From the human T2T-CHM13v2.0 reference genome, Homo sapiens: DNA of 64,000 nucleotides. Below the pieces are notes generated by a model. The model did no database searches. It was not told the origin of the DNA and worked only from the letters and a program-made list of their open reading frames with translations. Both the position numbers and the translations under genes were made by a program. Below, in pieces: positions 1 to 35,740 of the stretch (within the stretch, counting starts at the first letter, position 1; each line of letters opens with the position of its first letter). The DNA lies in the NCBI RefSeq assembly GCF_009914755.1, contig NC_060941.1; one strand, written 5' to 3'.

Positions 1-390
1 GTAAAGTGGTGAAAGAACAGCTACTCCATAGACAGAGAAGGGCGTTCCCGAAACTAAGAGAAGGAACGTATCCACCCTAGGTACAATGCTTGTATACATG
101 GGGAGAGGTGCTCTGCTACAAGGGTTTGTGATAAAGAATTAACTTTAATTATTACATTTTGCAAGAATCCCTATTACTACCTTTAAAGCAAAATTAGGAA
201 CGCCTTTGTTCTCCAGATATCCAGCTATCTGGACGCTCGGGTCTCTTCAGTAAACATTAATTTGTTCCCTTAACCGTAAGCATCTGAAAGCTAGGAATAT
301 CCTTCTGAGAATGCAGGCCCGTAAGTCCCGGCCTCATTTTTCTAGCCCTCACTCAAAATGGGGTCGCTTCAGGTTCCAACGTCTCTGACA
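1..390 (-). mobile_element. MER41-family ERV1 LTR (cut by the window edge), near-identical to 3855-4240
   Basis: The reverse complement starts TGTCAGAGACGTTGGAACCTGAAGCGACCCCATTTTGAGT, resembling the MER41 5' end. A GAS-type TTCTGAGAA lies at 303-311. Confidence 0.7.
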
Positions 391-884
391 GTCATACTAC
401 ATATGACTCAGCCACGTCAATGGAAAAAGTAGACTGGATAGTGACGTACCCGCAGAAAACGAATACAACAATCTGTCATATAGATCTGACCGCAGTCAGA
501 TTCTGCAGTGAAGTAAAGCCGGTAAACTTGCATGCAACGATCTTCATACCGCATCCAACAAAGCCACGTAAATCCAAAAGCAGTGCGACTCTGGATAGTG
601 AAACACATGCGGGAAACTTGAATGGAAAGATGTTTATACTGCCTCGGATGGAGACACGTAAATGAAAAAACAGTCCCGCTTGGGATAGTAAAGTAGGGGC
701 GCTAAACTTAAATATAACGATCCGAATATCGCATCTGAGTGTGCCAAGTAATAGCAGAGACCAGTCAGAATACGGATACTGATGTGGGTGCGGTAACCTT
801 AAATCCAATGACGGTCACACCGCATTTGATTAAACCAAGTGAAACCTAAAGCAGCCACACTCTCCAAAGTACGCGCTGCTGACT
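391..884. repeat. Cassette 1 tail: degenerate ~90-bp tandem units, CpG-rich
   Basis: Recurrent (G)CAGTC..GATAGTGAA..GC..AAACTT.AAT..CACGTAAAT motifs. Homologous to 4241-4720 and 6588-6950. Confidence 0.75.
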
Positions 885-1069
885 TATACACAAGTGTGCT
901 AACAGGCCCCGAAGATCCGATGCAAACGCGTGGAGGTAACGAAAGAAGCTCCCATTCCACCTTGTCAGCAGACAGCGTTTAGAGATCTCCTTTGCTGATG
1001 TAACGCGAAATAACAGTAACTGATAGAGCAAGTTCCGCACTTAACCTGAGCCTAAACGACCAAGGCGCT
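885..1069 (-). pseudogene. Extremely diverged U2 snRNA-derived sequence (cassette 1 head)
   Basis: Minus-strand TGGAATGGGAGCTTCTTTCGTTACCTCCACGCGT matches U2 TGGAATAGGAGCTTGCTCCGTCCACTCCACGCAT at 26/34. The 5' part AGCGCC..TTAGGCTCAGGTTAAGTG..TATCAGTT is colinear with the U2 5' end. The span is ~185 nt, like U2. Confidence 0.7.
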
Positions 1070-1104
1070 GCCGGCATTAGCGTTCGTCCACGGCCCTCCT
1101 CCTC

Positions 1105-2190
1105 TTAGAGCCAAGTGTATTAATAGGTCCCGACAATCTGAGTGGAGATGACAAGAGGCTCCCATTCTATGAGTGGAGATAACAAGCTGATGACGAAACC
1201 CGGGTGCTCCCCTCATTGGCACCCAGCAGGCAGCACCGGCCCGCTCCCGGAGCCCTCCATCCTGCGCTTTCCCAAACCCCCATCAAAACACCAACCCAGT
1301 CTCCTCCCTCTCAAGCCATTTTCCAACCTGCCTGGGAGCCACTCTGATCTCCCAGAACACCTCATTTTGTGAATTATAAACCTTTTCACACCTTCTCGGT
1401 CCCTGTGTGATGTCACCAGTCTCGATTTCCAAAATAAATTTGGGGTCAGTGGTGGGGCTGGGGTCCATCTAGTTCTGCAGAGTGGGAACAGCACAGAAGC
1501 TACCGGACTTGCTGTGCGCATAGTCCAATTTGGGTGCAAAAGCCTCCCCACTGGACTGGGTGGCCTCTTATCAGTGACAAAACCAAGGGATTTGCTAGTC
1601 CCTCATTTACACACTGGTTACTGAGTGCCTCCCGTTGAGTTGAACACTTTTACTTCCGGGGAAAATTCGTTGTTCCAGACCAAGTTGACTACTGTCTTCA
1701 CTGGACATTCTAAGAGGTGCTTTTGGTCCCAGGGAAATACCCCGGAAGCTGTGAAGTACAACAGCCTTAGGCCCTGTCCCAAATATTCTAATTTAATGGC
1801 TGTACGGTGGGGCTAGGACCTCAGGATGATTCACTCCACCGAGGTATCCGGTCGTCCTGAAGTATAGCCAAGGTTGAGAAGCACCGATAGACACGGAAGA
1901 ATTTTCACTCCCCTTCAGCAAAGACCTTTGTAGGTATGACCTCCTTTGGCTGTCATTGTTCAGAATGGTGGGGGGTCTGGCAAGAGCGAGTCTTAGGGCT
2001 GAGACTAAACCCAATTTATAGGATTTAAGTCCTCTAGATGGGAGGTGGGACAACTGGGACTGCTCACTTGTTCACATGTACATCGGCCTGGTGTATTTCC
2101 ACCAGAAACTGTTCCTCATTATACTGTCTGCCTGGGCCGATCCCTCCTGTCATAAGTTGACACAAGTAAATTGCAAAGTCCTAATCACCT
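1105..2190 (-). mobile_element. Probable ERV internal (env SU-like) remnant replacing the cassette 1 promoter
   Basis: Broken minus-strand frames contain gammaretroviral SU-like pieces (DFAIYLCQLM; NPLVLSL..W..GL). It starts abruptly after the promoter-proximal remnant at 1084-1104. Confidence 0.4.
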
Positions 2191-2194
2191 AATT

Positions 2195-2971
<777 letters not shown>

Positions 2972-3741
2972 TAGCTACAAAGGAGTTTTTTTAGTGTGCA
3001 AAACCAAACAAAACAGCAAGGAGAAAAGTCCCCTGATTTCCACCCTAGTGCTTCTCAATCACACTCAGCATAGCAGCAACAAAACACAACCACATCTATC
3101 GAATCTTATTGCTCACGGCTGTTAAATATCAAATCTCAATCAGCAATTTTAGAGACGGATCCTCCAATGCTTTTGGTTCCCAGTGTTTCACAAGCAAACG
3201 GACAGAAATCGGGAGGGACATAGGAGAAGAATCAGTTAAAATCTCTAAGACCAGTTAAATGAAGTCTCCTGAAAATGACACTGAAACGGAGACAGCAACC
3301 AAGACAAGGAGGACGAGGCAGATTAATACAAAGAGCAGAGCCTGCGGTGTCAAACCTGTTTTTTAGCCGAGAGGGACTTTACTGAGAGGGGCCTCTAACC
3401 CCCTAAATCTTAGAAGGGACTCTAACCCTCCTCGATCCGGCCTCTAACCCGAGGTCGGTCAAGCGTCCTTGCCTTTTATTAAGAGGGGCCTCTAACCCAC
3501 TCTCTTTTAGGAAAGACTCTAACTCCATTAAGTTGGGCCTCTAACCCAATCCCATTCTTTACCCGGGCACTCCACCACTTACCCAAAGTCAGTCTACTGA
3601 CTACTGCAGTGCTGCAGTCTACTTCCTTTGGGTTGGGGGAGTTTCTTCAGTATCGTCCCTTCCATCATTCGCCAGAAATATGTTATAGGACCCCAACACT
3701 TCCCCAAAGCACTATAGTCCCATCTGTGGTGGCCAGAAATA
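2972..3741 (-). mobile_element. ERV1 (MER4/MER41-group) internal leader adjoining the LTR
   Basis: Abuts the 3' end of the LTR, contains CCTCTAACCC reiterations and PBS-like TGGC starts on the minus strand. Confidence 0.5.
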
Positions 3742-4240
3742 CGTCACAGGAAAAGGGCCCCGATCCAGACCCAAAGAGAGGGTTCTTGGGTCTCGCGCAA
3801 GAAATAACTCAGGGCGAGTCCACGGTGCAAAATAAAAGCAAGTTTATTAAGAAAGTAAAGTGGTGAAAGAACAGCTACTCCACAGACAGAGAAGGGCGTT
3901 CCTGAAACTAAGAGAAGGAACGTATCCACCCTAGGTACAATGCTTGTACACATGGGGAGAGGTGCTCTGCTACAAGGGTTTGTGATAATTAACTTTAATT
4001 ATTACATTTTGCAAGAATCCCTATTACTACCTTTAAAGCAAAATTAGGAACGCCTTTGTTCTCCAGATATCCAGCTATCTGGACACTCGGGTCTCTTCAG
4101 TAAACATTAATTTGTTCCCTTAACCGTAAGTATCTGAAAGCTAGGAATATCCTTCTGAGAATGCAGGCCCATAAGTCCCGGCCTCATTTTTCTAGCCCTC
4201 ACTCAAAATGGGGTCGCTTCAGGTTCCAACGTCTCTGACA
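3742..4240 (-). mobile_element. MER41-family LTR, full length
   Basis: The + strand runs from CGTCACAGGAAAAGGGCCCCGATCCAGACCCAAAGAGAGGGTTCTTGG to GTCTCTGACA. GAS-type TTCTGAGAA at 4153-4161. Confidence 0.75.
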
Positions 4241-5134
4241 GTCATACTACATATGACTCAGCCACGTCAATGGAAAAAGTAGACTGGATAGTGACGTACC
4301 CGCAGAAAACGAATGCAACAATCTGTCATACAGATCTGACGGCAGTCAGATTCTGCAGTGAAGTAGAGGCGGTAAACTTGAATGCAACGATCTTCATACC
4401 GCATCCCACAAAGCCACGTAAATCCAAAAGCAGTCCGACTCTCGATAGTGAAACACATGCGGTAAACTTGAATGGAAAGATGTTTATACTGCCTCGGATA
4501 GAGACACGTAAATGAAAAAGCAGTCCCACTTGGGATAGTGAAGTATGGGCGCTCAACTTAAATAGGACCGTCCGCATATCGTATGTGAGTGAAGCAAGTA
4601 ATAGCAAAGGGCAGTCAGATTACGGAGACCGATGGCGACTGAAGTGAGTGCAGTGATCGTCACGCCGCAACCAAGTGAAACCGAAAGCAACTAAGCGCTC
4701 GAAAGCACGCCCGGCCAGCTCAAAAACTACGGCGCTGATGGACCCCAGTGATCCGACGTAAAGGTGCAAACGTAAAGCGCACACGGCCAATTTAAAAGCA
4801 GCGGCGCTTATAGGCCCGGACGAACCGACGTGAACGCGTAGAAGTAAGGTACGCGCGATGAGCTTAAATATGCGAGTACTAAGAGACCGTGAAACCCGGA
4901 TTTAAGCGTGTAAACGCAACACACAACCTAGGAGGTCAGTAACAACGGTCCCAACTGATGCAAACGGCCCAATGCAAACACGTTGAGAATCTCCCGTTAG
5001 CGACAGTAACACACGCTAAGCAACCAATACGAACAAAACTCCCGCTTCGAAAACTGCACCTCGGAATCCTTCCAGCAATCAAGGGCCAGCAACAGCACAA
5101 ACCTTCCACGGTATCAACGCCGCTTTCAAAATGA
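4241..5134 (-). ncRNA. Cassette 2: putative ~0.9-kb snRNA-promoter-driven ncRNA built of ~70-bp and ~90-bp degenerate tandem units
   Basis: Lies directly downstream of a PSE and DSE at canonical spacing. Unit starts: GCAGTC at 4342, 4430, 4520, 4611 and CGGCGCT-like at 4730, 4802, 4873. Transcription is inferred, not shown. Confidence 0.5.
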
Positions 5135-5362
5135 AAACGTTAACGATCGGCCACTGTACTCCTTCTCCCACACATCCTAACCTCAGGGTGACAGATAGCA
5201 CCCTGAATAACTCTCTCTCCTACGTTGAGATTGTGTATCTTTATCCAAATCTGAACACCTGCGTAAGTAATATTGTTACTATTTTGGAGGATATTCACTT
5301 TCCTTTTTTGCTCCCATAACTCCCGAGAGAAGCAGCCATTTTAAATTTGCATGCCCCGCCCC
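5135..5362 (-). promoter_or_regulatory. Pol II snRNA-type promoter: PSE 5171-5192, octamer 5345-5352, GC box 5354-5362
   Basis: The minus strand reads GGGGCGGGGCATGCAAAT (as in the U2 DSE), then AAAATGGCTGC (YY1-like), and ~160 bp later GTCACCCTGAGGTTAGGATGTG. No TATA box. Homologous to 11871-12107. Confidence 0.8.
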
Positions 5363-5504
5363 AGACGCGCCGTGCCCTGCCTGCCAACCACTGAACAGAA
5401 AAGCGCCTGTAAATCACTGGAATCTTGGGAAAGCTCCTTCGGCTTCATTGCCCTTCAGGAGGAAAAACCCACAACGGAAAAGACACGAAGAGCTCTAGGA
5501 GGCT

Positions 5505-5605
5505 CTTCTTTCCTCCTCCTCCCCCTCCCCTTCCCCTCCCCTCTCCCTCCGCCTCCCTTCCCCTCCGCATCCCCTCCCCCTCCCTTCCCCCTCCCCCTCC
5601 CCATC
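5505..5605. repeat. C/T-rich low-complexity tract
   Basis: Runs of CCCCT/CCCT. Confidence 0.9.
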
Positions 5606-5703
5606 TCGTCCTGACCTAGCTGGCATCCAACATTACTTTAAACTTTTTTTCACACATACGTTGAAAGAATTGTTTGGTGAACACCCGTATGCCCATCACC
5701 TAA

Positions 5704-6052
<349 letters not shown>

Positions 6053-6239
6053 CAATTACATATTTTGTATAGCTGCACACATGGAGACAGGTACTCAGGT
6101 CTCGTCCCTCTAGCCATTTCTCAACTGTCTGGTCCGGCAAGGGCAAGTTTTCGAGGAGGCCAGGGTGCAGCCCTCAGGGGAGCACATGCTCTGACTGGTT
6201 GCAGGGCTGGGCGGAACCTTGGGAAAGGGGCCCCTGTAA

Positions 6240-6548
<309 letters not shown>

Positions 6549-6587
6549 TGAGGTACCGCACCCAGCCCCACATTACTATCTTCAAAG

Positions 6588-9035
<2,448 letters not shown>

Positions 9036-9039
9036 TGGC

Positions 9040-10880
9040 CGTTTTCTCTAGTTTCTTTAAATTTCCTCAAAATGGCTATTTTGAATTCTCTGTCTGAAAT
9101 GTCACGTCTCAGTTCCTCTGGAATTGAACAAATGTGGTTTGGTGAGACCATGTTTTCTTGGATGGTCTTGATGTTTGTGGATGTTTGTTTTGTCTGCGTA
9201 TGGAAGAATTAGGTATTTACTGTATTTTTCACAGTCTGGGCTTGTTTCTGTGTGTCTTTCTTGGGAAGGCTTTCTGGGTATTCCAGGATATGTGTGCCCC
9301 AAGTCCAATCATGCTGTGATTCTTACAGACTTGTAGAGGTACTACCCTGGTGGTTATTGGGGGAAATTCAGCCAGCTATCAGGCAAAATTCACCCCTGAT
9401 ATTTTACGTAGTTCTTTTCTATTTTCCCGAAGTGTCGGCCAGTCTGAGAAATAAAGGGACAGAGTACAAAAGAGATAAATTTTAAAGCTGGGTGTCTGGG
9501 GGAGACATCACATGTTGGCAGGTTCCGTGATGCCCCCTGAGCCATAAAACCAGCAAGTTTTTATTAGTGATTTTCAAAAGGGGAGGGAGTGTACGAACAG
9601 GGTGTGGGTCACAGAGATCATGTGCTTCACAAGGTAATAGAATATCACAAGGCAAATGGAGGCAGGGCAAGATCACAGGACCACAGGACTGGGGCAAAAT
9701 TAAAATTGCTAAGGAAGTTTCAGGCACACATTGTCATTGATAACATCTTATCAGGAGACAGGGTTTGAGAGCAGACAACTGGTCTGACCAAAATTTATTC
9801 GGCGGGAATTTCCTCGTCCTAATAAGCCTGGGAGCGCTATGGGAGACTGGGGCTTATTTCATCCCTACAGCTTCGACCATAAAAGATGGCCGCCCCCCGA
9901 AGCAGCCATTTTAGAGGCCTACCCTCAGGGACGCATTCTCTTTCTCAGGGATGTTCCTTGCTGAGAAAAAGAATTCAGCAATATTTTCCCATTTGCTTTT
10001 GAAAGAAGAGAAATATGGCTCTGTTCTGCCCAGCTCACCGGTGGTCAGAGTTTAAGGTTATCTCTCTTGTTCCCTGAACATTGCTGTTATCCTGTTCTTT
10101 TTTCAAGGCGCCCAGAATTCATGTTGTTCAAATACACATGCTCTACAATTTGTGCAATTTACACAATCATCACAGGGTCCTGAGGTGACATACATCCTCC
10201 TCAGCTTACGAAGATGACGGGATTAAGAGATTAAAGTAAAGACAGGCATAGGAAATCACAAGGGTATTGACTGGGGAAGTGATAAGCGTCCATGAAATCT
10301 TCACAATTTATGTTCAGAGATTGCAGTAAAGACAGGCGTAAGAAATTATAAAAGTATTAATTTGGGGAACTAATAAATGTCCATGAAATCTTCACAATTT
10401 ATATTCTTCTGCCATGGCTTCAGCCGGTCCCTCCATTCAGGGTCCCCAGCTTCCCGCAACAGTGGTCTTGGATGAGATCTGAAAGAATCCTCTGGATTAC
10501 CAGGCAGAGACTCTTGTTCTTTTCCCTTACTTTCTCCTAAATAAATGGAGTCTCTCTCTGTGCTGAGATGCCTAAGCAACCCTGTGCTGGTTCAGACCCA
10601 AACCCAGCACAGCACCAGGTCTCACTCAAAGGCCTGCTAGATCCACTACCTGCTACCACCTATGCCCCCTCAAAGCAGTAGAGCTCTAGGATCAGGTGGC
10701 CAAGCCAGCCAGGATTATGTCCCTCCCTTTAGGGCAGTGAGCTCCCTCAAGCCCTGGGTGGGTGCTGGAATGCTGTCTAGGAGCCAAGGTTTGGAGTCAA
10801 GACCTTAGAAATGTAACTGATGTTTTATTCTACTGCAGTTAAGCTCCTAGGGAAACCACAAGAAAAAAGTTCTCCCCACT
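9040..10880 (-). mobile_element. Old L1 5'/ORF1 region interrupted by MER11
   Basis: Minus-strand translation ISDREFKIAILRKFKE is L1 ORF1-like. The sequence resumes after the LTR. Confidence 0.7.
9355..10461 (-). mobile_element. MER11 (HERV-K11) solo LTR
   Basis: The reverse complement begins TGTTGCGGGAAGCTGGGGACCCTGAATGGAGGGACCGGCTGAAGCCATGGC. Flanked by the TSD GTGGT. Confidence 0.85.
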
Positions 10881-11664
10881 CTTGGCTAACTGCAAGATGC
10901 CTCCGATGAGGCCTCCTACCCAAACCTTTCTTATTCGCAGGGACCAGGCTTTCTTACTCGCAGGGACCAGGCTTCAGCTCCCTGACTAAGAAGTCAAATA
11001 AAGGTCGGGCGCGGTGGCTCAGGCCTGTAACCCTAGCATTTTGGGAGGCCAAGGCGGGCTGATCACTTGAGTTCAGGAGACAAACCTGGCCGACATGGTG
11101 AAACTCCCTCTCTCCTAAAAATACAAAAATTAGCCAGCCATGGTAGCGAACGCCTGTAGTCCCAGCTACTCGGGAGGCTGGGGCGGGAGGATCGCTTGAA
11201 TCCGAGAGGCAGAGGTTGCAGTGAGCCGACATGAGGCCACTTCACTCCAGCCTAGGCAACAGAGTGAGACTCGGTATCAAAAAAAACAAAAAAGAAAAAA
11301 TGTGAGCAGTTGGGAAGCAATAATATGAAAAATGAGAGCAAAAGTAACTGCAACATTGGGGAAGACTAAACAACGTCGCTTCTGGCGTTGGCTTATGGAT
11401 GACCACCCCGCTTTCTTCACGTTTTAACTGTCTGGAGTCCAGAAATTAGCAATGCACCTCCTTGGCATATCAGGATGCCAACAAGCACCCTTGTCCCCAG
11501 TTTCAGGACTCGGCGGCGTACTTTCCCAATACGCATTCCCTTATTCTCAATCCGGTTAAAAGCAAAGAAGTAATACCACCCACCAATACTTTCCTTATAC
11601 AACACAAAAACACACACACACATACACAACACCACATAATGAAACCAACGCGAATGTAAGTAAA

Positions 11665-11681
11665 TCTGTTCTTTGTAAAAC
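11665..11681 (-). terminator. snRNA 3' box
   Basis: Minus-strand GTTTTACAAAGAACAGA just past the U2-like 3' end fits GTTT-N-AAARNNAGA. Confidence 0.7.
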
Positions 11682-11685
11682 GTGT

Positions 11686-11870
11686 TTTGACCCTCTTTGG
11701 AAACACGGCAATACCAAGTCGATGCGCAGAGTGGAAAAAACCAGCTCCTATTTCATCTTTCTATTCCAAAACCCCACTTAAATATATCGTCCTCAGACCA
11801 AAAAAAATCAGTTATTCAACTGATAAAAACATGCTACATTGGATCTTAGTCAAAAAGCCAAAAAAGAAAC
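11686..11870 (-). pseudogene. Diverged full-length U2-like snRNA gene or pseudogene
   Basis: Minus strand TTGGCTTTTTGACTAAGATCCAATGTAGCA..TATCAGTTGAATAACTGAT..GAGGACGATATATT..AGATGAAATAGGAGCT..GCATCGACTTGGTATTGC is colinear with U2. The branch-point recognition and Sm sites are altered. Confidence 0.88.
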
Positions 11871-12107
11871 AACACGTTTCTTTCGGCCACAGCACTCCTT
11901 CTCCCACTCATCCTGAGGTCACGGTAAGAAAAATGATCCTCAAGTAAAGAAGCACTCTCTTCCCTAAGTTCACACAGTGTTCCTTGTTACAATTTGTAAC
12001 ATTGCATAAGTAATACTGTTACAAATTTGGGGGGGATATTCGCTTTCTCTTTTTGTTCCCATAGCTCCTGAGCGAAACAGCCATTTTATATTTGCATGCC
12101 CCGCCCC
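11871..12107 (-). promoter_or_regulatory. Pol II snRNA-type promoter: PSE about 11907-11928, octamer 12090-12097, GC box 12099-12107
   Basis: CTTACCGTGACCTCAGGATGAG at about -58 and GGGGCGGGGCATGCAAAT at about -225. Confidence 0.85.
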
Positions 12108-12539
12108 ACAGGCTCCGAGCTCCGTCCTCCCCGCAGGCTGGCCCTATTACCACCATCTAACATCATCTTGCTGGACTTGCTTTATGTATTTATTTAAGAC
12201 GGATTCTCGCACTGTTGCCCGGGCTGGAGTGCAGTGCCGCCATCTCGGCTCCGCTTCCCGGGTTCACGCAATTCTCCTGCCTCAGCCTCCCGAGTAGCTG
12301 GGATTACAGGCGTACACCAGCACATTAGGCTAAATTTTTGTATTTTTAGTAGAGACTGGGTTTCACTATGTTGGCCAGACTGGTCTGGAACTCCTGACCT
12401 CGTGATCCGCCCGCCTTGGCCTCCCAAAGTGCTGGGATTACAGGCGTGAGCCACCGTGCCCGGTCTGGACTTACTTTATTATATGTTATAGACATGTAAT
12501 TACATATTTTGTATAGTTGACCACACAGAAACAGGCACT

Positions 12540-13050
12540 TAGGTCTCCGTCCCTCTAGCCATTTCTCAACCGTCTCGACCGGCGAGTTTTCGTTGAGGCG
12601 AGGGAGCGCTCGCTCCCACAGGTTCGAGGGCTGGGCGGAGCCTTGGGAAACGGGCCCTGGTAATCTCCGCTCAGTGAGTGGCGCTGCGAAGCTGCTTCTG
12701 CCCGGGAAGGAGGAGAGGGGCCTGGAACCGCCGAGGGAACCACCAGTTCCGACGCCCTGGGGTGGGCCCGGAGGACCGAGTGGCTGGGGCGGCACGGGGC
12801 GGGGGGCTGGGCGGGAGGAGCGGGGGTCCAGGAGGTGACCCAGGAGGGGGTAGGATCGGGCTGGGCCTCGTGGGCTCCCTGCCCCCGGAGGGGGCGCGCA
12901 GAGGGAGGGCGGTAGCCCAGTGAGCGCGACCACTACTTCCCTGTGAACGCGAGAGCTCAGACAAGCCACAGGGGGCCAGAGCCGAGAAACCGGAAGACCG
13001 GCGAGGAGACCATAGCACACTCCCAGGAAAGAGAGCGCGAGGGCTTGGGC
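12540..13050. promoter_or_regulatory. CpG island upstream of the U2-like gene
   Basis: High GC and CpG content, GC boxes, and an ETS-like ACTTCC. Confidence 0.65.
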
Positions 13051-27438: not shown

Positions 27439-29567
27439 GTTGAAAATCTTGGAGGCCTTTGAAAACATAGAGAGACTGGACTTCTGTTTCTATGATCAGG
27501 GTGAGGTATACAGGTGGTCCCCAGTAGCCATGGACTGGGAGAGATGACACGGAGATACTACTTTGTGTAAGAGAAGAGTACATGTTTCAGAATCACAGGA
27601 ACACCAATGTGTAATGAGCAGGCAGGCCGAGAGAAATGACAACGTATGTCCTTATAAAGACTTAGAGGCAAATGTTTAGAGCAGAATTATTCGAATAGCT
27701 TTGAACTGAAAACTACTCAAACGTCCATCAGTGGGTGAACGGATAAACAAAATGTGATATTCAGGAATAAAAACATAATGGTACAACATAATGGCACATG
27801 TCACAATGGGGATGAACCTCAGAAACATTATGCTCAGAGAAAGACATCAGTCAGACACAAAAGACCACATACTGTGTAATTCCTTTCATATGAAATGCCA
27901 GGAACGGGAACTCTAGACATAAAGTAGATCAGTGGTTAACTCAAGATGAGGGTGGGAGTGGGCAATGACTGTGTAGGGGAGGCAAAACTTTATCTCCTTA
28001 GGGTCCTTGCTGGGCCTGAGACTCAAACTGACATAGATTAGCAGGAGGAAAGCTATCATAAAAGCTGTCAATGTAAGTTTTACATGACACGGGAGCCCTC
28101 ACAAGGAAATGAAAACCCAAGGCCACGATCATATATGTGCATTTGTTCTGGTTATTTTCTGCCTCCCCTTCCACTTGCCATTCTTCTCTCCCCTGCTCTT
28201 TTGTACTGCATAGAGCTGCATAAGGGTCGTGAGCCAAACAGCACTCCCTCTTGCTGCAGCTGGTCACAGGGCTGCCCCTGCTACTCATCCTGTGCCTCAT
28301 GGGCAACATGTTATGCCCATGTCCAAGGTACAGAGAAGTGGACCCAGAGCCAGGGAGAGGTGATAGGGACCTTTGGGCGGGGTGGGAGGTGCTTATTGAG
28401 AACAGAGTCCATGTCACCATTAGGGAGAGAGCATGGAAGCAAGCACGTTTGACAATCCTGTGTCTGCCCTGTTTCTGGAGAGGCAGATGCAGACAGCAGG
28501 TCAGAGGGAATTTGACTGGACAGGAACTTGGGGGGTTGAGGGTAGCCATTGCATATAACCAAACCTGTTACACATTTCTTTGATATCTGATGTCATTGTG
28601 ACATGATCTAGAAACCTCTGTCAAAATAGTTCCTGATGATACTAAACAACAACTGAGACTGTTTATTGAGTTTGTGAAATCAAGGAGTGGCTGCTCTTCT
28701 AGAAGCAGTGAGTTGATGTCTGTTCTAACATTGTTCTGAGACAAGGAAACCTTTTTATACTTTAATAGCCAGGGTCAGAATTTCTCAGATTGTATATTTG
28801 CATGTAGCACAGGAGATGCTCTTTTAATAAAAATCCAGAAATTTGTTGTGCACATTATTCAATAGAGAACAATATCAAATTAAACCAACAACAATGACAC
28901 TTAACATTTGCCCAAAGCTTGGTAAATGTTGATGGTCACTGTGTACCTTCAGATAGCTGTGTACTCTAACAGAGAGAATGATTTCAAAATCAGTTGAAGA
29001 GAAACCGCCTCTGCCTGCCTGTACCTGTATATTACTGTCAATGTCAATCAGGAATGTGTGGGTTCATTCCAGTTATTTTCGGGCTCCCAATCTACTTGCC
29101 ATTCTTTCATCTCCTGCTCTTTTGTACTGCATAGAGCTACAGAAAGTTAGTGAGTCAAACGACAGCCCCTCTTGGTGCATTTGGTCACAAGGCTGCCCCT
29201 GGTACTCAACCAGTGCCTCCTGTCCTCTCCCCTCCAAATCCCCCCTCCTTCTCAGCTATCAACTCTGTTAATCCTGGTGGTTTCCCTGGCTACCGTGACC
29301 CAAACTCTCATTCCTGAAAAGTCTAAACCCCTCAAGGCCACATCTTTCTCAAGTCAGGGTTCCTGCACTTGTCCATTCATGTCACAGGTGGACCTGGGAG
29401 TAACACGTGGCACCCAAACAGATCACCAGAGTTCACATATATTCCACCTGCCCTCCCTGCATAAGAGCACTACTCCCTCTTCCTGATGATGGTTCAGGGC
29501 CATTAATCCCTGCCAAGATGGTGACTGCTCCTGCCTGCTAGTTCAACCTGTCCAGCCACAGCTGTAG

Positions 29568-29873
<306 letters not shown>

Positions 29874-30315
29874 TAGGCTGGAGTGTAATGGCGTGATCTC
29901 ACCTCACTGTGGCCTCCTGGGCTCAAGCCATCCTCCCACCTGGGCCTCCCAAAGTGCTGGGATTACAGGCATGAGCCACAGTGCCCGGACTGAAGATATC
30001 CTTTAGAGAAAGAAGCAGCGGGTAGTTTTGCCAAGGCCAGACAAGATTTCTGGAGTTTGGAAAGGGTGAGAGATTGGGTCAGCAAAAGACACATTCTGAT
30101 CTTTATGCTGGGATGCAATTTATAGATACAGGGATGAGACCCAAAAAAGCTGGGAGAGATTTGTCATCATGGTTGCAAGGCAACTGCCGGTGGCTGATCC
30201 CGTAAAGGATACACATACCTAGAACACAGCCTAAAAAAGCATCAAGCATGAAGGGTGGAGCCACGATGCTTGGACTCGAGTTCTGCTCCTGTGCATTCCT
30301 CGGTAACTTAAACTA

Positions 30316-30781
<466 letters not shown>

Positions 30782-31002
30782 TCATCACCCCTCCACAGCC
30801 AAGCTGAGATTTAAAGCCCTCCAAGTAAAGTCGAACATGTTCCCTCCTTGGAAATGAATATTCTTGTTTTGGGTCCTAGGATACTCTCCATAAATCATGA
30901 ACCTTATGATACTTAAAGGAGTAAGAAAACCTACCAACTATCCTAAACTACCCGGCGCAGTCTTTTCTTTCTAACCTTGCAAACAGGTTGTATCCCAGGA
31001 GA

Positions 31003-31191
31003 GGGAGCCCCATTCCTGGAGGTACTGCAATACCAGGTCGACGCGTGGAGTGGACAGAGCAAGCTCCTATTTCATCTCCCTGCTCCAAAAATCTATCTAA
31101 TATAATTGTTCTCTGATAGAGGACGTATCAGATATTAAACTGATAAGAACAGATACTACACTTGATCTTAGCCAAAAGGACGAGAAGAGAT
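31003..31191 (-). pseudogene. RNU2-4P: Near-intact U2 snRNA gene copy with genomic flanks
   Basis: About 90% match to U2 by eye, with GTAGTA and the Sm site GATTTTTGG intact. 3' box-like GTTTGCAAGGTTAGA at 30970-30984. The symbol is inferred from remembered position upstream of ARL4D. Confidence 0.9.
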
Positions 31192-31231
31192 GTCGTCGCC
31201 TTCCTCCCTGCCATCACCGTCCCACTCTCAT

Positions 31232-31251
31232 CTACATTCAAGACGCGGTGA
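31232..31251 (-). promoter_or_regulatory. U2 PSE
   Basis: TCACCGCGTCTTGAATGTAG versus the U2 PSE TCACCGCGACTTGAATGTGG, in the same CTGGGGCTC...GATGAGAGTGGGACGGTGA context. Confidence 0.9.
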
Positions 31252-31361
31252 GAGCCCCAGCCTCGCTCCTTGCCTCATTCACTTTGTCTTGTCCACACCA
31301 ATATTGACGCCATTACACACTCGGGCTGATTTCTTATTCTCCACGTTTTAAAAGAAAAATC

Positions 31362-32048
<687 letters not shown>

Positions 32049-32085
32049 AAGAGAAATCTTACACCAGTTCTAGTTCCGGGGTTTC

Positions 32086-32118
32086 CGGGCTTTCATTTCG
32101 AATTTGCATGCCCTGCCC
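32086..32118 (-). promoter_or_regulatory. U2 distal sequence element (octamer 32102-32109)
   Basis: Minus-strand GGGCAGGGCATGCAAATTCGAAATGAAAGCCC matches the U2 DSE context, with the GC box mutated. Confidence 0.85.
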
Positions 32119-32119
32119 T

Positions 32120-33240
32120 TTCCCAGGAGGCGTGGCCACCGCGGTTGACTCCACCCCCGGGCCCGCCTCCAGCTAAGGAGCCGCGGCTGGGCTAGGGGCG
32201 ACTTCCTTGTTTGTATGAGCGAAAAGACTGAACCAAAAGAGACAGGGGGTGAAAACAAGATAGGTCTGTGGAAGAGACCTGTAGGCGGAGAGCGGTCCCT
32301 GTTTTCCTGGAGAAAGACGAGTCGCAAGATATCATCACCAGGGGAAACCAGGCTGAGCTGGATCTTTACGTCGTCACCAGTGGGCGGGGAGACCAGCCTT
32401 GTACCCACTGGACAGCGGGCCCATTCCGAGTCAGGGAAGCAGAAGGCCTGGAGGAGCTTCGGGGAGCAGGGGCTGGAGTTCCTCTGCCAGGCAGGAGGCT
32501 GACACCAGACACCGGGCAGAGGGAGGCGGCGCATGGACGGCGAGGGCCCAGCAAGGATTCTCCCCAGCCCCTGTGCCTGCGTCTCCTGCGGCTTCTGTGC
32601 GCGGACCGTGTCCTGTGCTGTGTAGGGAAAGCTGCTTCTCTGCTTGGGACGTGGATTCCTTTACCCTCCTCCTCGCCTGACTACTTCTGACGCGGGTCGT
32701 CAGGACTCCGCTTGGGTGTCACCCGTCCAGGAAGCCTCCCTTAATTAAGGGCCCTCGGCACCCACCCCATATGTGATTAGCAGCCCTCCTGTGTATTTCA
32801 TCGCACCTCGTTGTTTATATCAACTACTCCACTCACCACCCTTCTGGGCAGTCCTTTATCTCCCCCTCTGAAATCCGATCGCTGAGGGCTGGGACCCTCA
32901 TCAGTACTTATCCCCGTTTCTCTGCGCTAGTCTAATTAGTGCCTGGCAAGTTGAAGGCGCTCAGTAAACGTTTGTGGAGCGAAGAAACGACGGATAGGGC
33001 GTAATGAGCACGACACACGCAATCAGAGAGGACGCAGTTAGGAGGCTATTGGCCCGGGGCAGGCGTGAAGGGGGAAGATCGGGCTCGGGGTGGGAGGACA
33101 CCAGAGGGCGGGGTGACTGTCGGGGTGCTCTGGAGGAAGATGGGCGTCAAGGCCCCCAGCAAGGTTGGGATAAATTTTCTCTCTGAGGCACAGACTGCCG
33201 CCTGTAGCGTCAGCATTTACCATTCCCGTCCTCCTTCCTA
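32120..33240. promoter_or_regulatory. CpG island, possibly the promoter of the lncRNA recalled here (LINC00910)
   Basis: CpG/GC-rich segment. The lncRNA assignment is from memory of the locus only. Confidence 0.55.
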
Positions 33241-33784
33241 ACACAACAGTTGAGATGAGAGTTTATGGCTCTTTTATTTGATTTCAGAAAAGCAAGAAGG
33301 TATCATAGATCCGATAGTGACACTCAGTCAGTCATGCTCCCCCTGCAGGATGGAAAGCCGGATGGCAGGGATTGCCTGGTGAACAACCAGGTCAAAAAAT
33401 ATAAACTGTGCCTTTCCCAATGCCAGCCTCGGGTCCGAGGGCTCTACGTGCATTATCTCTTTTAGTTCACTCGACAGCCCTAAGAGATGGGCGTTATTAT
33501 TAGCCACGGCCAGGATTAGGGTGAGGTCATTCCTCTAGGTTCGAATTTCAGGGGGTGATCCTCCAGAACCCTTCAGTAATCAAAATAAATAATAGTTCAA
33601 TGCAATATATCTTATCTCGATTATAAGATAATCAAGCCATTTATCTGGATTGCTGAGTCTTTTGGTGCCCCCTTATTTTTTTTTTTAACCTCTCAGCAAG
33701 TGTTTCCCTCATTTCACTTTACCCCAGTCTCCACCGAGTCATTGTCATCTCCATTCTATTACCCTGTGAAGTGCAATATGGCAG

Positions 33785-35740
<1,956 letters not shown>

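What the first reader, a model, noticed from the sequence alone, without database searches (positions are those of the whole stretch)
885..1104. Cryptic U2 ancestry of the CpG-rich cassettes
Seen: 885-1069 (and its duplicate 6950-7134) is colinear with U2, with a 26/34 match over stem III/IV, a remnant of the 5' end and the right length. Next to it, TTCGTCCACGGCCCTCCTCCTC (1083-1104) resembles the promoter-proximal TTCGGCCACAGCACTCCTTCTC of the 11870 gene at a similar distance from the start. The branch-point and Sm sites are lost. Inference: all three cassettes descend from a U2 gene, and copies 1 and 3 lost their PSE and DSE to an ERV-like segment.
Basis: partly seen in the sequence, partly recalled or inferred. 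Interest (0 to 1): 0.8.

Follow-up and report, generated by a model that had tools for sequence, protein, structure and literature searches.

The report
Decayed U2 gene relic beside RNU2
The flagged stretch is a real but badly decayed leftover of a U2 spliceosomal RNA gene, copied twice by a recent human duplication, and it is an ordinary kind of gene fossil whose unusually fast decay is the only mildly interesting part.

Summary
Window 866-1104 (minus strand) and its duplicate 6931-7169 are collinear with U2 snRNA and with 35 nt of U2-type 5' flank. Five tests agree: Smith-Waterman against dinucleotide shuffles (z 7-8.6, 0 of 400), an empirical scan, nhmmer in both directions (E 2e-6 to 2e-4), a U2 profile HMM, and a custom U2 covariance model with filters off (14.7 and 15.5 bits, E about 0.005-0.008).

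Rfam's own U2 model finds nothing at E<=10. The branch-point and Sm sites are gone and the fold is no better than shuffles, so this is a dead relic, not a U2.

Copies 1 and 3 are one lineage. They are the two 'A' segments of the polymorphic 'Jana' structural variant (bioRxiv 2025), with 0 substitutions over 983-2738.

The middle cassette has a genuine U2-type DSE/PSE, paralogous to the promoter of the U2 at 11682-11869. The two units are 80-90% identical upstream for over 1 kb, and this falls to random at the start site. The middle cassette's body shows no U2 similarity and only modest similarity to the relic.

Loss of the promoter to an ERV is not shown.

My inferred mechanism is transcription-linked hypermutation plus germline hypomethylation.

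The parts
866..1071 (-). Relic U2 gene body, cassette 1 (full-length match to the U2 model; branch-point and Sm sites lost)
   Evidence: fold z +0.72
1082..1104 (-). Promoter-proximal motif of the 11.7-kb-gene type, 11 nt upstream of the relic's +1
   Evidence: (17/22; only 4 places at 16/22 or better in 111 kb), alignment
1105..1169 (-). Partial tandem duplicate of the relic's 3' part (weak support)
   Evidence: nhmmer E 0.0097 and 0.0057; the wider stretch 1105-1300 against the relic gave z 2.4-2.6
508..862 (-). Four units of a roughly 90-bp CpG-rich tandem repeat (the 'stutter' of Jana), directly downstream of the relic; not U2-like
1275..1498 (.). Dispersed old repeat, probably the ERVL-derived part of Jana 'A'
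   Evidence: copies at 71-75% identity on other chromosomes; RepeatMasker summary in the preprint, section 8
6931..7169 (-). Cassette 3: duplicate of the relic plus proximal motif, made by the recent A duplication
524..2970 (.). Jana 'A' segment, proximal copy (98.9% identical to 6589-9034)
   Evidence: preprint sections 8 and 15
6589..9034 (.). Jana 'A' segment, distal copy
4699..5146 (-). Cassette 2 body: CpG-rich (o/e 1.1-1.8), T-over-A skewed, no detectable U2 similarity. Its two halves each align modestly with the cassette 1 relic
5147..5207 (-). Cassette 2 proximal motif and PSE-like element
   Evidence: (D17, 75% to 11883-11943)
5286..5375 (-). Cassette 2 DSE: GC box plus octamer, letter for letter as in the array U2 promoter
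   Evidence: searches (D15, 84%; 83% over 119 nt), alignment
4358..4619 (-). Three 90-bp stutter units of cassette 2; degenerate units continue to about 4920
11682..12138 (-). Diverged U2 gene (LOC124904147) with promoter; closest surviving relative of the cassettes' lineage
   Evidence: 61.1 bits; E 1e-22

Best explanation
Window 866-1104 (minus strand), and its copy at 6931-7169, is a dead, very decayed U2 snRNA gene.

Shown:
- It arose by DNA duplication of a U2 gene of the same local lineage as the diverged U2 at 11682-11869, because it keeps that lineage's promoter-proximal motif at the same spacing.
- It lies inside the 'A' segment of the polymorphic Jana structural variant, just distal to the RNU2 array.
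- The two copies exist only because A was duplicated very recently.
- It cannot act as U2: the branch-point and Sm sites and the stems are gone.
- The middle cassette (Jana 'C') keeps a U2-type DSE and PSE, followed by a body that no longer resembles U2.

Inferred, at about 40%: the bodies decayed far faster than their flanks because the copies went on being transcribed from snRNA promoters after selection on the RNA had lapsed. That would expose them to the transcription-linked hypermutation reported for primate Pol II snRNA genes. The same domain stayed unmethylated in the germline, which would keep CpG near its random expectation.
For: U2 ancestry: as listed in the observation check.

Duplication at the DNA level: the 5' flank motif and its spacing.

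Locus-specific: the relic has 2 places in the whole genome and cassette 2 has only local matches.

One lineage for copies 1 and 3.

Fast body decay:
- Cassette 2 against the 11.7-kb unit is 80-90% identical from 6226 to 5147, including a shared Alu. This drops to 34-49% from 5139 onward, within about 10 nt of the predicted start.
- The 11.7-kb gene shows sense-strand bias: C>T 18 against G>A 9, and A>G 7 against T>C 1. In 19 dispersed pseudogenes the totals were 128 against 105 and 21 against 28.
- From the start site to about +700-900, both cassettes have CpG o/e near 1.0-1.8 and T exceeding A. Upstream they do not.

Published basis: Pol II snRNA genes are 11-25-fold hypermutable in primates, within gene bodies, with C>T biased to the non-transcribed strand (bioRxiv 10.64898/2026.10.12.758683; abstract and part 1 of 2 of the Results read).
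Against: - Rfam's U2 model gives no hit at E<=10. The custom model's hits are only 14.7-15.5 bits, with rough E-values.
- The shuffle test can overstate significance. One of 8 intended control windows (1800-2025) scored z 4.8 against the relic, and the empirical tail reaches 191.
- Cassette 2's body is not U2-like, and profiles that include it lose the U2 match.
- The identity cliff could be a recombination breakpoint instead. Downstream of cassette 2 the sequence is related to cassette 1, not to the 11.7-kb unit.
- The T-over-A skew of the 90-bp units is not independent evidence, because they were amplified from one unit.
- No transcription, methylation or population-variant data were available.
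Confidence: 0.8

Rival explanations
1. It is an ancient relic evolving at the ordinary rate. On this view the cassettes are U2 copies that died more than 100 million years ago at this long-standing U2 locus and drifted at the normal rate. The cliff at the start site of cassette 2 is a recombination joint between an 11.7-kb-type promoter and an older A-type relic.
For: U2 genes have sat between CCDC200 and ARL4D in many mammals (preprint 10.1101/2025.11.08.687349, section 5 passage). Downstream of cassette 2 the homology is to cassette 1, not to the 11.7-kb unit. The substitution spectrum of the relic is near saturation, with 23 transitions and 21 transversions.
Against: CpG o/e near 1 is not expected of old methylated neutral DNA. 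The relic keeps the proximal motif of the 11.7-kb lineage at 77-82% while its body is far more diverged. The cliff falls within about 10 nt of the start site rather than inside the gene, where homology-driven exchange would be expected.
Confidence: 0.25
2. It is a live snRNA-type transcription unit. On this view cassette 2's intact DSE and PSE still recruit Pol II and produce a new, non-U2 small RNA or a regulatory transcript, and the cassettes are kept by selection as regulatory DNA.
For: The octamer and GC box are letter-identical to the array promoter, and the 5' half of the PSE fits the consensus as I recall it. CpG o/e is 1.1-1.8. RefSeq lists enhancers at 3829-4524 and 4570-4734 (annotation supplied with the finding).
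Against: No 3' box by the recalled consensus anywhere in the window. The relic folds no better than shuffles (z +0.72). The cassette 1 and cassette 2 bodies are only about 59% alike (116/197), which shows no sign of constraint. No expression data were available.
Confidence: 0.1
3. The likeness to U2 is chance in a CpG-rich, compositionally odd sequence.
For: Rfam found no hit. Identity is low. One intended control window gave z 4.8 in the shuffle test.
Against: Five different methods pick the same 200 nt on the same strand, full length and in order. The reciprocal search returns only U2 genes. The flanking motif and its spacing agree.
Confidence: 0.04

Closest known systems
Degenerating RNU2 repeats of the distal flanking region (RNU2-4P and neighbours), as described by Scholten, Segel and Haig, bioRxiv 10.1101/2025.11.08.687349
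   Same: These are dead U2 copies at the edge of the RNU2 array, inverted relative to it, outside the zone of concerted evolution and broken up by Alu and ERV insertions (sections 7 and 11 passages).
   Different: The preprint places RNU2-related sequence distal to Jana. In the sections I read (7, 8, 9, 15, 17) and in term searches ('CpG' and 'proximal sequence element' gave 0 hits), it describes Jana's A and C only as Alu and ERV plus repeats, with no U2 relic. The relic is also far more decayed: 14.7 bits here against 177.9 bits for RNU2-4P.
LOC124904147, the diverged U2 at window 11682-11869
   Same: It shares the lineage: the same proximal motif, and its promoter is 75-84% identical to that of cassette 2. 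A shared upstream Alu is 82% identical and the sequence beyond it 86%.
   Different: It still scores 61.1 bits with Rfam and is 135/186 identical to array U2. The cassettes are below any Rfam threshold.
Dispersed U2 pseudogenes (RNU2-nP)
   Same: They are non-functional U2 copies.
   Different: The 19 I examined are 85-94% identical to U2, with CpG falling from 9 to 0-6 and symmetric transitions. The relic has 12 CpG, a near-saturated spectrum, and carries 5' flank.
Hypermutable Pol II snRNA genes (Xue et al., bioRxiv 10.64898/2026.10.12.758683)
   Same: Excess mutation is confined to the transcribed body, with sense-strand C>T bias, as seen in the 11.7-kb gene and suggested by the start-site cliff.
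   Different: That work concerns living genes and present-day variants. Here the link to fossil copies is my inference and is untested.

Membership tests
U2 spliceosomal RNA (Rfam RF00004), functional member | Reaches the family gathering score (46 bits) | tested here: not met
   No U2 hit at E<=10 on 600-1400 or 880-1110. Not among the gathering-level hits of the window.
U2 spliceosomal RNA (Rfam RF00004), functional member | Branch-point recognition sequence and Sm site present | tested here: not met
   In the alignments, both sites are replaced by unrelated letters.
U2 spliceosomal RNA (Rfam RF00004), functional member | Stem-loops kept; stable fold | tested here: not met
   Many non-pairs in the CM alignment. 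MFE -56.4 against a shuffle mean of -59.4, z +0.72.
U2 gene relic by DNA duplication | Collinear similarity to U2 above chance, on one strand only | tested here: met
U2 gene relic by DNA duplication | Homology continues into the 5' flank (which excludes retroposition) | tested here: met
   Motif at 17/22, spacer 11 nt against 12 nt. The nhmmer alignment starts 21 nt upstream of U2 +1.
U2 gene relic by DNA duplication | Same ancestry for the body of cassette 2 | tested here: inconclusive
   Against U2, z 0.2 and -1.0. Against the relic, z 5.0 twice, and top-ranked in the empirical scan. The joint profiles lose U2.
Pol II snRNA-type promoter (cassette 2) | DSE with octamer and GC box, and PSE at snRNA spacing | tested here: met
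   The octamer at 5345-5352 and the PSE start at 5192 were read.
Pol II snRNA-type promoter (cassette 2) | 3' box downstream | tested here: not met
   0 matches in the window to the consensus as I recall it. The test is weak: the window's two U2 copies did not match either.
Pol II snRNA-type promoter (cassette 2) | Actual transcription, with SNAPc and Pol II occupancy | not testable with these tools
   No expression or ChIP data are held.
Jana structural variant, long form (ACBAB) | Two A copies about 2.4 kb long at 99% identity, two B copies at 93%, a 260-nt stutter, GCCTCTAACC tics | tested here: met
   524-2970 equals 6589-9034 at 98.9%. -1096..784 equals 2724-4634 at 92%. The stutter has 90-bp units, and the tics are at 3378-3547. 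Preprint sections 8 and 15.

The most novel reading that the evidence does not exclude
The cassettes are fossils of snRNA-gene hypermutation. On this reading, U2 paralogues kept working Pol II snRNA promoters after losing their function. They were then mutated beyond recognition from the start site onward while their flanks changed only 10-20%, and they stayed unmethylated in the germline throughout. Cassette 2 may still fire and produce a non-U2 transcript. This would be a natural long-term record of a mutational process so far seen only in present-day variants.
Probability: 0.3. Interest if true: 0.6.

Novelty: new member of a known kind. Interest (0 to 1): 0.33.

Why it matters
The finding extends the known belt of decaying U2 copies around the RNU2 array into the Jana structural variant, which marks the distal edge of the BRCA1-RNU2 low-recombination block. 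It also explains what part of Jana's 'A' and 'C' sequence is.

The sharp loss of homology exactly at a U2-type start site, next to well-kept flanks, offers a testable fossil of the hypermutation recently reported for primate snRNA genes.

In itself the relic has no function as U2. Dead snRNA copies are common.

Tried and rejected
- **Rfam cmscan on the region**: no U2 hit at E<=10.
- **90-bp repeat as U2-derived**: the profile of 19 units found nothing in any U2 gene or in the relic body. It also found nothing in the 91-bp repeat at 10222-10406 or downstream of the other U2 genes.
- **Cassette 2 body against U2**, with plain and transition-aware scoring: not significant.
- **The two halves of cassette 2 against each other**: z 0.25.
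- **Upstream 1105-1300** against the cassette 2 promoter, the 11.7-kb promoter or U2: not significant.
- **Paralogue profiles as a stand-in for ancestral reconstruction**: they did not come closer to U2.
- **A further relic at 1839-2014(-)**: z 4.8 against shuffles, but inside the empirical tail. Left open.
- **LTR13 resembling U2** (-8970..-8784): z about 5 by shuffles, but not found by the U2 profile HMM. Rejected as unsupported.
- **TpC context of C>T changes**: too few events to judge.
- **3' box search**: no match.

Full report
**Setting**

The window lies just distal to the human RNU2 array.
- The last array unit ends at window -36226.
- An old inverted RNU2 unit at 28184-33786 holds RNU2-4P.
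- The first 9 kb of the window is a nest of duplications: 524-2970 equals 6589-9034 at 98.9%, 1-784 equals 3855-4634 at 94.6%, and -1096..784 equals 2724-4634 at 92%.
- This is the long form of the polymorphic structural variant 'Jana' (order ACBAB) described by Scholten, Segel and Haig. I read sections 7, 8, 9, 15 and 17 of bioRxiv 10.1101/2025.11.08.687349, plus term searches.
- The finding's cassettes 1 and 3 lie in the two 'A' segments, and the middle cassette lies in 'C'.

**The observation**

On the minus strand, 850-1110 aligns with U2 far better than dinucleotide shuffles do.
- Against the U2 at 31000-31191: z 7.2, 0 of 300. The plus strand gave z -0.6.
- Against the array U2: z 7.3 and 8.6, 0 of 400 each.
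- The alignment is in order, from U2 nt 9-172 to window 1062-904.

Shuffle tests can flatter, so I also made empirical scans.
- One of 8 windows I meant as negative controls scored z 4.8 against the relic.
- Of 576 windows over 23 kb on both strands, the cassettes (scores 210-230) came directly after the windows centred on the annotated U2. One window on that gene's edge scored 183, and the best unrelated windows scored 171 or less.

Profile methods gave the same answer.
- nhmmer with the whole 6.1-kb array unit hit 1102-924 and 7167-6989 (E 7.7e-5 and 3.9e-5).
- With the cassette as query over 111 kb, the only significant non-self hits apart from local repeat units were the array U2 genes (E 1.8e-6) and RNU2-4P (E 4.5e-5).
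- A profile of 13 human U2 copies gave E 6.6e-5 and 2.3e-4, with the next hit at E 0.06.
- A covariance model built from the same 13 copies, run with filters off over 1-13000, gave full-length hits at 6931-7136 (15.5 bits, E 0.0052) and 866-1071 (14.7 bits, E 0.0083). Everything else was above E 1.6. These E-values are rough by the tool's own account.
- Rfam's own model found no U2 at E<=10.

The 22-nt motif next to the relic matches the promoter-proximal motif of the U2 at 11682-11869 at 17/22. In 111 kb on both strands, only that gene, cassette 2 (18/22) and cassettes 1 and 3 reach 16/22. The spacer to U2 +1 is 11 nt here against 12 nt there.

The branch-point and Sm sites are indeed lost, and the RNA folds no better than shuffles.

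**What it is**

It is a relic of a U2 gene copied as DNA together with its 5' flank, not a retro-pseudogene. It belongs to the lineage of the 11.7-kb gene. That lineage's flanks are unrelated to those of the array gene, although its body was long conserved.

The relic occurs at only two places in the genome. Those two copies differ by 0 substitutions over 983-2738. They therefore count as one lineage, in line with the preprint's human-specific duplication of A.

Directly downstream lie four units of a 90-bp CpG-rich repeat (the preprint's 'stutter'). I could not link these units to U2.

**The middle cassette**

It has a U2-type GC box plus octamer and a PSE.

Its upstream kilobase, including an Alu at the same place, is 80-90% identical to that of the 11.7-kb gene. 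Identity then falls to 34-49% within about 10 nt of the predicted start and never recovers.

Its body is not U2-like by any test. Its two halves (5111-4925 and 4916-4699) each align in order with the cassette 1 relic (z 5.0, 0 of 400). Cassette 2 windows rank just after the true U2 genes among 2494 windows, scoring 205-206 against a background tail reaching 191.

Three results weaken this link:
- The two halves do not resemble each other (z 0.25).
- nhmmer supports only a roughly 75-nt unit (E 5.6e-4 to 0.0085).
- Profiles that add cassette 2 to cassette 1 weaken or lose the U2 match.

So the promoter is certainly U2-type, but U2 ancestry of the body is likely rather than shown.

**The ERV claim**

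A dispersed repeat lies at about 1275-1498. It fits the 'ERVL 13%' the preprint gives for A. Between it and the relic, 1105-1169 looks like a partial tandem copy of the relic's 3' part. Replacement of the PSE and DSE by an ERV is therefore possible but not demonstrated.

**Mechanism (inferred)**

Three features point the same way.
- There is a cliff in homology at the start site.
- A domain from the start to about +700-900 has CpG o/e of 1.0-1.8 and T exceeding A on the sense strand, in both cassettes.
- The 11.7-kb gene has sense-strand-biased transitions, which 19 dispersed pseudogenes lack.

Xue et al. (bioRxiv 10.64898/2026.10.12.758683; abstract and part 1 of 2 of the Results read) report 11-25-fold germline hypermutation of primate Pol II snRNA genes. 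The excess is confined to gene bodies, with C>T biased to the non-transcribed strand.

A copy that stayed transcribed after losing its function would decay in just this pattern. I put this at about 40%. The main rival is an older relic joined to a younger promoter by recombination. The rising identity from the body into the stutter (53% to 100%) fits either a mutation gradient or recent gene-conversion patches.

**Novelty**

Two literature searches and the parts of the Jana preprint I read show no description of a U2 relic inside Jana. RepeatMasker tracks, which I could not see, may already label it. Dead U2 copies at array edges are a known kind, so this is a new member of that kind.

Noticed in passing
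window 11682-11869 (-): RefSeq calls LOC124904147 a U2 snRNA gene, but it is only 135/186 identical to array U2 and scores 61.1 bits. One base of the branch-point recognition box is changed. Its substitutions are biased to the sense strand (C>T 18 against G>A 9; A>G 7 against T>C 1). It is probably a pseudogene that was transcribed for a long time.
   Followed up: partly
upstream locus, window -8970..-8784 (+), inside an LTR13 copy: Smith-Waterman aligns this LTR stretch in order with U2 nt 6-189 (score 184, z about 5 against shuffles). The U2 profile HMM does not find it, so I treat it as unsupported.
   Followed up: partly
window 1839-2014 (-), and its copy near 7900-8080: This stretch aligns in order with the cassette 1 relic (score 178, z 4.8, 0 of 200), but the score lies within the empirical background tail. 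It may be a further, older relic inside Jana A.
   Followed up: partly
window 30981-32193 (-): RNU2-4P keeps its PSE. The part of the unit that carries the DSE (unit 3-148, at 32049-32193) is separated from the rest (unit 138-518, at 30981-31362) by about 0.7 kb, which coincides with the masked repeat at 31343-32049.
   Followed up: no
window 1-440 against 3855-4290: This part of the two B segments is 98-100% identical, whereas B as a whole is about 92%. It looks like a recent gene-conversion or exchange patch.
   Followed up: no
window 5512-5602: A (CCTCC)n polypyrimidine tract lies just upstream of cassette 2's DSE, inside the RefSeq 'silencer' at 5506-5605. It sits within about 330 bp that the 11.7-kb unit lacks at this place. 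It is reminiscent of the polypyrimidine microsatellite of RNU2 units.
   Followed up: no
window 10222-10406: Two copies of a 91-bp tandem repeat, unrelated to the 90-bp stutter by profile search.
   Followed up: yes
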